Below, one piece after another: positions 6,001 to 9,000 of a DNA stretch of 64,000 nucleotides. Numbering within the stretch: position 1 is the stretch's first letter; each line of letters begins with the position of its first letter. The position numbers were made by a program. Source of the DNA: a virus (lineage: Duplodnaviria; Heunggongvirae; Uroviricota; Caudoviricetes); IMG/VR virus record IMGVR_UViG_646311923_000012; one strand, 5' to 3'.

Positions 6001-9000
6001 TATCAGAATTGTGATGTTTGGTATTGTGCGCCATCGGTTTTCTCTGCTGGCGCAGCAGGTGCCAGTTGTTCAAGCTGGCGTGCGGCAATATTGTCTCTGA
6101 TTTCTGTTGTCGTCAACAGGCAACGTGCTATCATCGAATGGTGTTCTATCCTACTCCGTGAGGTTTACCATGCGTACAACCCAACAATTCAGCATTACAT
6201 TAACTAACGAAATGGCTGACATGGTGCGCGCCCGTGTGGCTTCCGGTGCCTATGCTTCAGAAAGCGAGGTCATTCGTGAAGGGCTTCGCGCACTGAATGA
6301 GCGCGATAAAGCAATCGAAGCGTGGTTAACGCATTCAGCCGCCCCCTCTCTTGATTCTATCCGCGAAAATCCAAACAACGGACGCTCCATTTCACAGGTT
6401 CGCGCCGCGATTCGATCCGGGAAGTAATCTGCATGACATATGAAGTCATCATTACTCCTGAGGCCGAACAACAAATAATCAACCTGCACAGGTATATAAC
6501 GGAGAAAGCAGGGAACGTCATTGCTGACAATTATGCCAATGCGCTTCTTGATTATCTTGATGGGTTTTCTACATTCCCGCATCGGGGCAATAAACGCGAT
6601 GATATTCGCCAGGGGATGCGGGTAACTCATTTCCGCCACAGAACGATTATTGCTTTTGCCGTTGATAGCAGAAAAGTCTTTATTGTCGGTATCTATCATG
6701 GTGGGCAAAGTTATGAAACCGATTTCTTATAAACTTTTACCCACATCATTCCGGTGTTAGAATTAACCGTCCGCCCCCTCTCTTACTGGCGGATTCGTAG
6801 GCTATATAAATCAAAGATCCCGGCTCATGTTTATGTCGGGATCTTTTTTCGGCGATTTATCCCCAGCGGCAAATCGAATACACCACCAGCGCCACCGCCA
6901 TCGCAATTCCTACCGTTGTGAATGCTTCAGGCCAGGTCATCGTAAAATATCCTCCACGCTTATCAGTCCGTTCCGCTCCAGATAACTCATCGCCTTATCC
7001 GGTAATTTGCAGTCTGGCTTCGCTTTCCTCAGTTGCCAGGTTAACTGCTTTACCAGCATGGTTAACTCATCGACCAGACGCTGATATCCCACTGGTTTGT
7101 ATTCATGCAATTTACCGGCTGGCTCTGCTGCCAGCGATACCAGTGCGATTTCCAGAACAGCAATATCCATCTTATATGTGCGGATGATGTCATGGTCGAT
7201 TGTGCCCGGTATGCACAGTCTCTGTGTTTCAATAGTCTCCTCTGCGTGAGCTATTAACTGCTCTCTGGTAAAAGTCGTCATGCCGTAGCCCCTTCTTGAT
7301 ATTTTTCAAACCAGAACACAACTGGGTCAGATTTCATTTCAACCAATCCCATACGAACCAGCGCTTTGCCTTTCCCGGACGCAAGGAATTCACGACGACC
7401 ATCACTGATAATTCGCCGATAATCTTCCAGACTACTGCAATGCTTGTGCAGATTGCATGGGTGGCATGCCGGAACCATGTTGGATATATCGTCACGTTCC
7501 TGGTGAAGCATATTTCCATCAAAACGAATGACCGGTTTTACATGGTCTGCATGCCACTTTTCGCCAAGTTCGCAGCCGCAATAAGCACAGCGACCGCCGA
7601 ACTTCATGCGCAGCTCTGCACGTTGTTTTTTCGTCAGTGCCATATCAGCTTTCCTTATACGGATTAATTTTATTGTGCAGTGTGCTGAACGACGCCCACA
7701 CCACGTCGTTATACAATTCAATAACTGGCTCAATTATTTTCACGATAAACCAGACCAGTAATAGCGGGGGTATCGGTATCATCAACACGATAAATATAAT
7801 GAGAAACAAAAATTCTGTCGCTCTACTTTTTCTCGGATATTCTTTTCTGAATAATGTAGTCATTTCTTACCGCCCTTTCAGGCGGCCTCCTGATGTTTTG
7901 AGGGTGCAGAAATCCCTCCGGTTAAGGATTAAATTTTTAACTAAATTTAATTATTCAGGCGCGATAAGCTGTTCCGCACAATCCAGCAATGCTTCTGTCG
8001 CTTCCTTAAGCGTTACTGTATCGCTATCATCCAGTCCTGCAACTTTTTCGTACCTGACAAACGCCGCGCAAAGCTCGTTAAACAACCCCGCCCGTACTTC
8101 AGCCAGGAAAGCGTCGGTGGCCGGAGTTTCAGGAATCCGTCTCCTCATCCGTTCTATTGCATGATTGAACCCGAAATCTTCAGCAAGAGATACGTCATCC
8201 ATATTGTCATTGTCGTCCTCAATATCCCGTGGTTCTGGAATTGCAGACTTTATTACCGCATTCTCCGCCGCCAGCGCCACAAGATTAGCTTTCAGCTCTG
8301 CAATTCGTTTGTTTTGGGCTTCCCGTTCATCCAGTAGTGCCAGCGCAACATTTGGATTAAAAGCAGCAATAAATTCAGCGTTTGCATAAGCCTGAACATC
8401 TGTTTCAACCAGGCAGTTAACATGACATTCTGCAATTACGCCACCGGGCTCTCCTTTCCATTTTTGACAAACAAAAACTCCTGTTATATTCCCATGCTGA
8501 TTGCCCGATGTATGCCCTACGATGTAGCATCCTTTAGTTGCTTTCTCTGCTGCTTCACGCAGCGCCTGATAGTCAATCTCGCTCATTCATCGCCCCACTC
8601 ATCACAATATGCTTCGACCGGATTTTTTCCTGCTTCATAATCATCACGCCATGCTTCAGCATCAGCAGCACTGCCACCACGTAACTCTGCATATTCCATT
8701 AACAGTTCATGCCATTCTTCAAAACTGACGCTGTATTTAGTTGAACCAAAATCAGCCATTTTGTTCTTCCTCTTCGTCTTTTATTTCGTGATATGAATAA
8801 TTGCAGTAGTTAAAGAAAATATCTTTTGCTTCGTCATGTATTTCATCAGGCGTCGCATCATCATCCACTTCGAATTCATCCTCGAAATCTCCACCGGCTA
8901 TTCCCGTTTCAATAATTATTTTAAACTTTCGCATTTAACTACCGCCCTTTCGGGCGGCCTCCTGACATTAATCGTTGTGGTAACTCATGGCTTCATTTGC

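What the first reader, a model, noticed from the sequence alone, without database searches (positions are those of the whole stretch)
7861..7895. Recurrent SD-hairpin-ATG element (three copies: 7864-7891, 8941-8963, 57181-57208)
On the coding (minus) strand three small genes are preceded by AGGAGG-CCGCC(C/T)GAAAGGGCGG-TA-N4-5-ATG. The 6-bp GC stem with a GAAA-type loop sits between the Shine-Dalgarno and the start codon, so linear SD-ATG spacing is ~22 nt but folded spacing is ~6 nt. A second hairpin (GAGGG-N9-CCCTC) lies just upstream in two copies. This resembles the structure-dependent initiation known for phage T4 gene 38 and could equally be a processing or anti-termination signal.
Basis: partly seen in the sequence, partly recalled or inferred. 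Interest (0 to 1): 0.55.

Follow-up and report, generated by a model that had tools for sequence, protein, structure and literature searches.

The report
Portable split ribosome-binding leader in prophages
A 24-nt "Shine-Dalgarno, tight hairpin, start codon" leader, built like the known split ribosome-binding site of phage T4 gene 38, sits in front of many unrelated small genes in E. coli lambdoid prophages and marks the exact point where those genes have been swapped between phages; its role in translation is inferred, not tested.

Summary
AGGAGG-CCGCCYGAAAGGGCGG-TA occurs three times on the minus strand (0 expected by chance), each 4-5 nt before the ATG of a small gene (DUF4014 twice, DUF7167 once). 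The hairpin (7 bp, GAAA tetraloop, -13 to -15.5 kcal/mol) always forms in the predicted ensemble.

The element is larger and more widespread than reported:
- A sharply bounded ~70-nt module (or a 26-nt short form) is present in about half of complete E. coli genomes.
- It is essentially restricted to Escherichia/Shigella prophages.
- It joins 12 upstream gene families to 8 downstream families in 30 combinations.

Read directly, T4 gene 38 has the same layout: stop, SD, tetraloop hairpin, A/U spacer, AUG, with a 22-nt linear gap. The best explanation is a portable split ribosome-binding site that also serves as the short homology where gene cassettes recombine.

Caveats:
- Formal covariation is not significant.
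- 11% of copies have a broken stem, and most of those keep an intact gene.
- No experimental data exist.
- Anti-termination, terminator and promoter readings are not supported.
- The conserved left half remains unexplained.

Verdict: a new member of a known kind, of moderate interest.

The parts
7868..7891 (-). Core copy 1: AGGAGG (7886-7891), 5' arm CCGCCT (7880-7885), loop GAAA (7876-7879), 3' arm GGGCGG (7870-7875), TA (7868-7869). Spacer AGAA 7864-7867, ATG 7861-7863.
7892..7937 (-). Conserved left half of the long module, copy 1 (ATCCTT 7924-7929; GAGGG-N9-CCCTC hairpin 7900-7918). Function unresolved.
   Evidence: Conservation profile. Alternative folds. Helices not supported by variants.
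7645..7863 (-). Downstream gene of copy 1: DUF4014, 72 aa.
   Evidence: Homologs with conventional leaders start at the same codon.
7951..8586 (-). Upstream gene of copy 1: Ead/Ea22-like. Its stop codon lies 59 nt before AGGAGG.
8940..8963 (-). Core copy 2 (short form): AGGAGG 8958-8963, stem and loop 8942-8957, TA 8940-8941. ATG 8932-8934.
   Evidence: It is a 26-nt direct repeat of copy 1, 1072 bp away.
8939..8968 (-). 9-codon mini-ORF (ATG TCA GGA GGC CGC CCG AAA GGG CGG TAG). It overlaps the upstream stop (TAATG), runs through the hairpin and ends 4 nt before the DUF7167 ATG.
   Evidence: Sequence. Present in 23 of 24 short-form contexts and absent from the long form.
8752..8934 (-). Downstream gene of copy 2: DUF7167, 60 aa.
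8968..9180 (-). Upstream gene of copy 2 (70 aa, ...EAMSYHND*). This is the only family that uses the short form; its stop lies 4 nt before AGGAGG.
57185..57208 (-). Core copy 3 (second prophage): AGGAGGCCGCCCGAAAGGGCGGTA. ATG 57178-57180.
57209..57254 (-). Left half of the long module, copy 3 (ATCCTT 57241-57246; hairpin 1 at 57217-57235).
56962..57180 (-). Downstream gene of copy 3: DUF4014 paralog, 72 aa.
57308..57619 (-). Upstream gene of copy 3 (103 aa, ...GPVCVWLRNKAEA*), no Pfam family.

Best explanation
The element is a portable translation-initiation leader of the split (discontinuous) ribosome-binding-site type.

Proposed mechanism: on the early-operon mRNA, a perfect Shine-Dalgarno sequence (AGGAGG) directly abuts a very stable 7-bp hairpin with a GNRA tetraloop. 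With the hairpin folded, the 22-23 nt linear distance from the SD to the AUG collapses to an A/U-rich spacer of about 5-8 nt. The 30S subunit can then engage both at once, as shown experimentally for T4 genes 38 and 25.

Because the same 24-70 nt sequence precedes many different accessory genes, it also acts as the short patch of homology at which gene cassettes are exchanged or deleted by homologous recombination between lambdoid prophages.

Shown here: the sequence, its predicted stability, its position, its distribution and the recombinant junctions. Inferred: that the hairpin is needed for efficient initiation, and that the recombination role is selected for rather than a by-product.
For: 1. 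Position. In 108 unique contexts a start codon follows the 6-bp stem by 6-9 nt in 87 of 96 cases. An in-frame stop lies 1-3 codons upstream of the ATG in 73 of 96, so starts cannot be further upstream.
2. Start codons. DUF4014 homologs with a conventional leader (AAAGGAGAGTGAT-ATG) start at the same codon. Pfam profiles begin at residues 1-2.
3. SD. AGGAGG (-9.8 kcal/mol against the anti-SD) at 21-22 nt is the only strong SD. The spacers are A/U-rich and lack an SD in all but one downstream family. By comparison, 34 of 43 other CDSs in this prophage have a canonical-distance SD.
4. Hairpin. dG is -12.9 to -15.5 kcal/mol and P(pair) is about 1.0. In the short form the SD is 95-99% unpaired.
5. 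Precedent. T4 gene 38, read and folded here, has the same stop-SD-tetraloop hairpin-A/U spacer-AUG layout. PMC3014915 reports spacing reduced from 22 to 5 nt (g38) and from 27 to 11 nt (g25), with stem mutations lowering translation.
6. Variation. 135 of 152 unique hairpin-agnostic contexts keep all six pairs. Pair-preserving C>U variants are twice as common as pair-breaking ones (35 against 17 contexts). Two compensatory haplotypes exist, and the closing pair varies G.U / A-U / G-C.
7. Junction. Conservation is 95-100% from -46 to +24 and 40-60% outside that block. The element joins 12 upstream and 8 downstream families in 30 combinations. All four flank combinations share only the ~26-nt core. 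BLAST matches to other phages begin exactly at the core.
Against: - Formal covariation is not significant: 94.0% of cells paired against 93.2% in shuffles (76 of 500 shuffles reach it), and the covariation score is reached by 51 of 500. An early strand-asymmetry result (p = 0.0047) did not replicate in the independent metagenome sample, where G>A pair-breaking variants occur.
- 17 of 152 contexts have a broken stem, and 13 of those still have an intact downstream ORF.
- One downstream family (MGITKERLLE...) carries its own GGAG at canonical distance after the hairpin, so the upstream SD is not always needed.
- A weak SD-like GGCGGU (-6.2 kcal/mol) lies at canonical distance inside the 3' arm.
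- In the long form the SD can pair weakly with anti-SD-like tracts.
- The near-identity and narrow host range fit recent spread as well as they fit selection.
- No expression data exist for any copy.
Confidence: 0.5

Rival explanations
1. The element is a pure boundary (linker) sequence or a hitch-hiker. It is conserved only because it has spread recently by recombination among E. coli prophages. The hairpin has no role in translation and the genes initiate by other means.
For: - The long module is found only in E. coli and Shigella among about 185,000 species representatives, yet it is in 49% of complete E. coli genomes.
- Its sequence is near-identical everywhere.
- Covariation is not significant.
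- Broken-stem copies keep intact ORFs in 13 of 17 cases.
- Recombinants map to the core.
- The boundary-sequence concept is established in the literature (PMC3029335).
Against: - A bare homology patch need not be a perfect SD abutting an extra-stable tetraloop hairpin at a fixed 5-8 nt from every start codon.
- Pair-preserving variants outnumber pair-breaking ones 2:1, although only about a quarter to a third of random substitutions preserve pairing.
- The downstream genes lack any other SD.
Confidence: 0.18
2. The hairpin is inhibitory. It keeps AGGAGG too far from the AUG and buries a weak canonical-distance SD (GGCGGU). Expression then depends on ribosomes arriving from upstream and melting the hairpin, followed by translational coupling or re-initiation.
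For: - GGCGGU (-6.2 kcal/mol) lies 4-5 nt from the AUG inside the 3' arm.
- In the short form a TAATG overlap opens a 9-codon mini-ORF that traverses the hairpin and stops 3-4 nt before the AUG, in 23 of 24 short-form contexts.
- 98 of 108 copies have a stop codon immediately after the stem.
Against: - The long form, which is the majority, has no ATG-initiated mini-ORF, and upstream stops lie 59-115 nt away in varying frames.
- This model gives the invariant AGGAGG no role.
- The experimentally tested T4 g38 site has the same layout and is activating.
Confidence: 0.12
3. The hairpin is an RNA-level element unrelated to SD spacing. It could be an intercistronic stabiliser or processing mark (an exonuclease barrier, a protective end after cleavage), or an operator for a trans-acting protein or RNA that co-regulates all genes carrying the leader, including those in co-resident prophages.
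For: - It is a very stable GNRA hairpin on the sense strand.
- The same sequence occurs up to 6 times per genome, which would suit co-regulation.
- The conserved left half has no explained function.
Against: - No complementary (antisense) copy exists in the window.
- Rfam finds no family.
- The stem is too short for RNase III (established knowledge that about two helical turns are needed).
- The fixed contact with the SD and the fixed distance to the AUG are not required by a stabiliser.
- The adjacent gene products are an acidic 60-aa protein and a hydrophobic 72-aa protein, neither a likely RNA binder.
Confidence: 0.12
4. The element is a transcription signal: a nut/put-like anti-termination site, a terminator or a promoter.
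For: The long form has two hairpins in tandem. There is a loose resemblance between AAUCCUUAAC and boxA, and between GCCC-GAAA-GGGC and lambda boxB (from memory, not tested).
Against: - The only GCTCTTWA in the window is at 21376, far from any copy.
- The copies lie mid-operon, two per operon, and in either the PR or PL arm in different phages.
- No U-tract follows the stem, and no promoter or terminator is called at the element on its own (minus) strand; the scan's only call there is a chance-level 5-pair site on the opposite strand at 7878-7893.
- Nothing matches in Rfam at E <= 10.
- The short form lacks hairpin 1 altogether.
Confidence: 0.03

Closest known systems
Split (discontinuous) ribosome-binding sites of phage T4 genes 38 and 25 (Nivinskas et al. 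1999; Malys & Nivinskas 2009; reviewed in PMC3014915)
   Same: - Upstream stop codon, then a strong SD abutting or overlapping the base of a stable tetraloop hairpin, then a short A/U-rich spacer, then AUG.
- The linear SD-AUG gap is 22 nt in g38 and 22-23 nt here. Folded spacing is about 5 nt in g38 and about 5-8 nt here.
- Stability is similar: -16.7 kcal/mol for g38 against -13 to -15.5 here.
   Different: - There is no sequence homology: a UUCG loop with a mixed stem in T4, a GAAA loop with an all-G/C stem here.
- The T4 sites are each tied to one gene. This element is a shared, multi-copy cassette in front of at least 7 unrelated gene families in temperate lambdoid prophages, and most copies carry an extra conserved 46-nt left half.
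- The T4 sites are experimentally proven; this one is not.
Short conserved boundary ('linker') sequences at mosaic junctions of lambdoid phages (modular theory of Susskind & Botstein; Clark et al. 2001 on HK620; cited in PMC3029335)
   Same: A short conserved intergenic sequence is flanked on both sides by unrelated genes in different phages, and recombinant flank combinations meet inside it.
   Different: - This boundary sequence has an evident function of its own (SD plus structured leader), which could explain why it is conserved.
- I could not read the original descriptions, so I cannot say whether this particular sequence was among those reported. No paper in the searchable library contains it.
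Bicistronic-design style translational coupling: a leader mini-ORF that contains the SD of the next gene (own knowledge of Mutalik et al. 2013; not read here)
   Same: In the short form, a 9-codon ORF overlaps the upstream stop (TAATG), contains AGGAGG and stops 3-4 nt before the next ATG.
   Different: The SD lies 22 nt, not 7-9 nt, from the start, with a hairpin in between. The long form has no such mini-ORF.

Membership tests
Split/discontinuous RBS (T4 gene 38/25 type) | A strong SD lies too far (more than 15 nt, linear) upstream of the start codon. | tested here: met
   AGGAGG (-9.8 kcal/mol against the anti-SD) has its 3' end 22-23 nt from the AUG.
Split/discontinuous RBS (T4 gene 38/25 type) | A stable hairpin is contained wholly between the SD and the AUG, leaving both accessible. 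| tested here: met
   P(stem pairs) is 0.95-1.0. In the short form the SD is 95-99% unpaired. In the long form the SD is partly paired by weak 4-bp alternatives.
Split/discontinuous RBS (T4 gene 38/25 type) | The folded SD-AUG spacing falls in the functional range (about 5-11 nt). | tested here: met
   There are 6-9 nt after the 6-bp stem (5-8 after the 7-bp stem) in 87 of 96 contexts; the range is 2-11.
Split/discontinuous RBS (T4 gene 38/25 type) | No competing accessible SD at canonical distance. | tested here: inconclusive
   The spacers are A/U-rich in 6 of 7 independent downstream families. One family has its own GGAG. A weak GGCGGU is buried in the 3' arm.
Split/discontinuous RBS (T4 gene 38/25 type) | The structure is maintained by selection (covariation). 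| tested here: inconclusive
   89% of contexts are fully paired, 2 haplotypes are compensatory, and preserving variants outnumber breaking ones 35 to 17 contexts. Shuffle controls are not significant (76 of 500 and 51 of 500).
Split/discontinuous RBS (T4 gene 38/25 type) | Stem-disrupting mutations lower translation and compensatory mutations restore it. | not testable with these tools
   Needs reporter fusions or toeprinting.
Lambdoid mosaic boundary (linker) sequence | A short conserved intergenic sequence with unrelated flanks on both sides in different phages. | tested here: met
   Identity is 95-100% from -46 to +24 and 40-60% outside that block, over 75 unique contexts.
Lambdoid mosaic boundary (linker) sequence | Recombinant flank combinations meet inside the sequence. 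| tested here: met
   30 combinations of 12 upstream and 8 downstream families. All four flank combinations (four gametes) share only the ~26-nt core.
Lambdoid mosaic boundary (linker) sequence | Recombination at the sequence is demonstrated experimentally. | not testable with these tools
   Needs phage crosses.
nut/put anti-termination RNA | A boxA (CGCTCTTA / GCTCTTTA) just upstream of the hairpin, at the start of an operon. | tested here: not met
   The only GCTCTTWA in the window is at 21376. The copies are mid-operon. Rfam finds nothing.
Intrinsic terminator | A G+C-rich hairpin followed by a U-tract. | tested here: not met
   The stem is followed by UAAGAAAUG or UAGUUAAAUG. The scan calls no terminator on the element's own (minus) strand; its only call there is a chance-level 5-pair site on the opposite strand at 7878-7893.

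The most novel reading that the evidence does not exclude
The ~70-nt module is a dedicated cassette junction for lambdoid accessory genes, functionally a phage counterpart of an integron attC site plus a universal leader. On this reading it is maintained because it both supplies ready-made translation signals to whatever gene lands downstream and promotes exchange of accessory genes among co-resident prophages. Alternatively, its identical copies form a regulon controlled by one trans-acting factor across prophages, with the unexplained left half as the sensor or operator.
Probability: 0.12. Interest if true: 0.7.

Novelty: new member of a known kind. Interest (0 to 1): 0.4.

Why it matters
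If the mechanism holds, three things follow.

1. Hairpin-bridged split ribosome-binding sites would no longer be a T-even curiosity. They would be seen as a reusable device in temperate phages, present in about half of sequenced E. coli genomes, including Shiga-toxin phages.
2. It would provide a concrete, abundant and sharply delimited example of the "boundary sequences" long postulated to drive modular phage evolution, together with a functional reason for their conservation. [quoted passage not shown]
3. Gene-start and RBS predictors that score only linear SD spacing will underrate these genes. The 24-nt core could also serve as a compact natural part for expression design.

Tried and rejected
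- Rfam, at gathering threshold over the whole window and at E <= 10 over the region: nothing at the sites.
- Promoter/terminator scan: nothing above chance at the element; the one terminator-like call overlapping copy 1 (+ strand, 7878-7893, 5 pairs) is within the number expected from shuffles.
- boxA search: none nearby.
- E. coli K-12 Rac and Qin prophages, fetched in the hope of using K-12 experimental data: no copy.
- Literature: no paper contains the hairpin sequence, and none of the listed hits mentions DUF4014 or DUF7167. One search failed on a term that was too short.
- A second GNRA-loop candidate (AAGCCACC-GGAA-GGTGGTTT) turned out to be an ordinary terminator with a T-run.
- A four-segment switch in the left half (1:2 + 3:4 against 2:3, with anti-SD-like tracts UCCUU and CCCUC): energetically possible, but every candidate helix has several pair-breaking natural variants and there is no temperature-dependent masking of the SD. 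Not supported.
- I first read GAGTG...CACTC as a compensatory change in hairpin 1. On exact indexing it is a U.U mismatch.
- The strand asymmetry in the first sample (variable G sites 0 of 6 in the stem against 6 of 7 in the left half, p = 0.0047) did not hold in the independent left-anchored metagenome and viral samples. I withdrew it as evidence.
- An upstream ORF reading in frame through the module to the post-stem stop: true for window copy 1 only, since stop-to-element distances vary in frame across families. Coincidence.
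Full report
**What is there**

On the minus strand the 24-mer AGGAGGCCGCCYGAAAGGGCGGTA occurs at 7868-7891, 8940-8963 and 57185-57208. There are no other matches even with three mismatches allowed, and none in 100 dinucleotide-preserving shuffles (sequences). Each copy is followed after 4-5 nt by an ATG that opens a small ORF:
- 7645-7863: DUF4014, 72 aa
- 8752-8934: DUF7167, 60 aa
- 56962-57180: a DUF4014 paralog, 72 aa

The hairpin has six G-C pairs (a U.G pair at the loop end in copy 1), plus a closing G.U pair that uses the last G of AGGAGG, and a GAAA tetraloop. 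Alone it folds at -12.9 and -15.5 kcal/mol, with z = -3.6 and -3.2 against shuffles. In about 130 nt of native context every stem pair has probability 0.95-1.0.

**Genomic setting**

The window holds two tandem lambdoid prophages. The tRNA genes and STnc100 are duplicated at about 1.3-2.5 kb and 50.6-51.8 kb. In the first prophage the two copies lie in the rightward early operon, between the replication genes and the nin/Q region. They are 26-nt direct repeats 1,072 bp apart. In the closest isolated phage, the Stx phage ArgO145, the same gene cassettes sit in the leftward early arm. RefSeq annotators chose the same ATGs.

**The unit is larger, and it is portable**

There it precedes at least seven unrelated N-termini, with stem-to-start spacers of 2-11 nt. 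Column-by-column identity over 75 unique contexts is 95-100% from -46 to +24 relative to AGGAGG, and 40-60% on both sides of that block. So there is a sharply bounded ~70-nt "long" module. Window copies 1 and 3 are long modules and are therefore not independent of each other.

A "short" form, as in copy 2, has the core placed 4 nt after the stop codon of one particular upstream gene.

Distribution:
- The long module is in 2,645 of 5,426 complete E. coli genomes, at 4,340 places and up to six per genome.
- It is in only 19 of 50,697 deposited phage records.
- Its left half matches only E. coli and Shigella flexneri among about 185,000 species-representative genomes.
- It is absent from the K-12 Rac and Qin prophages.
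- No searchable paper contains the sequence.

**It is a recombination junction**

Clustering the flanking ORFs of 120 unique contexts gives 12 upstream families and 8 downstream families, joined in 30 combinations. A four-way alignment shows all four combinations of {short-form upstream gene or long left half} x {DUF7167 or DUF4014}. They share only TC(A/G)GGAGGCCGCCYGAAAGGGCGGTA. That is the four-gamete signature of crossovers inside the core. One of these combinations is exactly the product expected from recombination between the two direct repeats in this window's prophage. BLAST matches from other phages begin precisely at the core. This fits the "short conserved boundary sequences" of the modular theory of phage evolution (PMC3029335).

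**Are the start codons and the SD right?**

Loci retrieved through the DUF4014 protein, and therefore blind to the leader, fall into two classes. About three quarters carry the hairpin leader. The rest carry a conventional leader (AAAGGAGAGTGAT-ATG or -GTG) that places the start at the same codon. Further support:
- An in-frame stop lies 1-3 codons upstream of the ATG in 73 of 96 contexts.
- The Pfam profiles begin at residues 1-2.
- The only strong anti-SD partner within 35 nt is AGGAGG (-9.8 kcal/mol), 21-22 nt from the AUG.
- By comparison, 34 of 43 other annotated CDSs in this prophage have an SD of -5 kcal/mol or better at canonical distance.

The spacers are A/U-rich and SD-free in all but one downstream family, which has TGGAGATAATA-ATG. 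A weak GGCGGU (-6.2 kcal/mol) sits at canonical distance, but it is buried in the 3' arm of the hairpin.

**Direct comparison with T4**

I fetched and folded the T4 gene 38 initiation region. It reads: g37 stop UAA, AGGAG, an 8-bp stem with a UUCG tetraloop whose first pairs overlap the SD, AAAU, AUG, at -16.7 kcal/mol. The element here reads: stop, AGGAGG, a 7-bp stem with a GAAA tetraloop whose first pair overlaps the SD, a 5-8 nt A/U-rich spacer, AUG, at -13 to -15.5 kcal/mol. The linear gap is the same, 22-23 nt. [quoted passage not shown] The architecture therefore matches an experimentally established mechanism point for point. There is no sequence homology, so this is an analogue rather than a relative.

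**Comparative evidence for the stem**

This evidence is weaker than I first thought.
- In the first samples all stem variants were C>U changes that keep a G.U pair on the sense strand. G sites were invariant in the stem (0 of 6) but variable in the left half (6 of 7; p = 0.0047).
- I then drew independent samples anchored only on the left half, from metagenomes and from viral contigs. They are more diverse and contain pair-breaking G>A and C>A variants.
- They also contain two fully compensated haplotypes: CCACCC...GGGUGG and CUGCCA...UGGUGG.
- Pooled over all hairpin-agnostic samples: 100 contexts have the reference stem, 35 have only wobble or compensated changes, and 17 have a broken pair. 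13 of those 17 still have an intact downstream ORF.
- The formal count on 36 haplotypes gives 94.0% of cells paired against 93.2% in shuffles (76 of 500 shuffles reach it). The covariation score is 0.201 against 0.184 (51 of 500). Slid-partner controls give 31-63% paired.

Covariation is thus not significant. The 2:1 excess of pair-preserving over pair-breaking variants is only suggestive, because the copies are related to each other.

**The left half**

It carries an SD-like tract (GGAGGG) and two anti-SD-like tracts (UCCUU, CCCUC). These can form hairpin 1, or alternative helices that weakly mask the real SD. Every candidate helix has several pair-breaking natural variants, and I saw no temperature switch. 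Its function is unresolved. It may simply lengthen the homology available for recombination.

**Other readings**

- Anti-termination, terminator and promoter are not supported. There is no boxA nearby, no U-tract and no promoter call on the element's strand. The copies are mid-operon and multi-copy, and Rfam finds nothing.
- An inhibitory-hairpin or translational-coupling model stays open, mainly for the short form. There a TAATG overlap opens a 9-codon mini-ORF that runs through the hairpin to a stop 3-4 nt before the AUG, in 23 of 24 contexts. 98 of 108 copies have a stop codon right after the stem.
- A stabiliser, processing or operator role cannot be tested here.

**Verdict**

The finding is real. 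What is established is descriptive: a narrowly distributed yet very abundant, sharply bounded leader cassette that marks a combinatorial recombination junction in E. coli lambdoid prophages. I rate it a new member of a known kind (split RBS; boundary sequence), with interest 0.4.

Noticed in passing
window 1294-2487 and 50618-51812 (minus strand): The block of three tRNA genes (Arg, Arg, Ile per RefSeq) plus the STnc100 sRNA is present twice about 49 kb apart. This indicates two tandem lambdoid prophages with similar late-regulatory regions.
   Followed up: partly
window 8939-8968 (minus strand); short-form loci such as L166, L220: A 9-codon mini-ORF (MSGGRPKGR*) starts at a TAATG overlap with the upstream gene's stop, contains the SD and the whole hairpin, and ends 3-4 nt before the next ATG. 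It is present in 23 of 24 short-form contexts and in none of the long-form contexts. The arrangement resembles a natural bicistronic-design coupling device.
   Followed up: partly
window 7892-7937 and 57209-57254 (minus strand): The conserved left half contains tracts that mimic the 16S anti-SD (UCCUUA, CACCCUC) and an extra SD-like GGAGGG. ATCCTT is its most invariant segment (0.17 variant alleles per column). No structure or function could be assigned.
   Followed up: partly
window 7941-7958 and 9221-9238: A second short repeat, CTGAATAA(T/A)TAAATTTAG on the minus strand, follows the stop codons of two different genes: the Ead/Ea22-like gene and the ORF at 9231-9587. It may be another boundary sequence in the same gene array.
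   Followed up: no
IMG/VR loci with the MGITKERLLE... gene: One downstream gene family carries its own GGAG 7 nt before the ATG, after the hairpin (GGGCGG-TGGAGATAATA-ATG). Here the upstream AGGAGG plus hairpin is redundant for SD function.
   Followed up: no
L206, L239 (DUF7167 loci) and L281: Degenerate copies exist. In one, AGGAGGCC and part of the left half are deleted (…GGGGATCCCTCAG-GCCCGAAAGGGCGG…). In another, a poly-G run replaces the hairpin 1 loop, the stem is CTGTCC and the loop is GGCA. These may be decaying copies or assembly artefacts.
   Followed up: no
PP818812.1 'Actinobacillus phage vB_Apl-pPE4', 11347-11428: A record labelled as an Actinobacillus phage carries the E. coli module at 96% identity together with E. 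coli-type Ead/Ea22 and hok genes. Given that the module is otherwise restricted to Escherichia/Shigella, the host label is doubtful.
   Followed up: no
window 16226-16277 (+), 56107-56281 (-), 63603-63719 (-), 6171-6733 (+): Other RNA and toxin-antitoxin features lie in the prophages: the DicF sRNA, a sok antitoxin RNA next to the second element-bearing region, an ALIL frameshift pseudoknot (IS3-type), and a ParD/ParE pair inserted in opposite orientation in the nin-like region.
   Followed up: no
window 7278-7643 (minus strand): A free-standing HNH endonuclease gene immediately follows the DUF4014 gene, both here and in ArgO145. I did not examine whether HNH nicking near the junction contributes to cassette exchange.
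   Followed up: no
DUF4014 proteins: Some database entries name DUF4014 proteins 'sugar/O-polysaccharide acetyltransferase inhibitor' or 'released from the phage upon host infection'. Nearly all members are 72 aa and restricted to Escherichia, Salmonella and Shigella. I did not trace the basis for these names.
   Followed up: no
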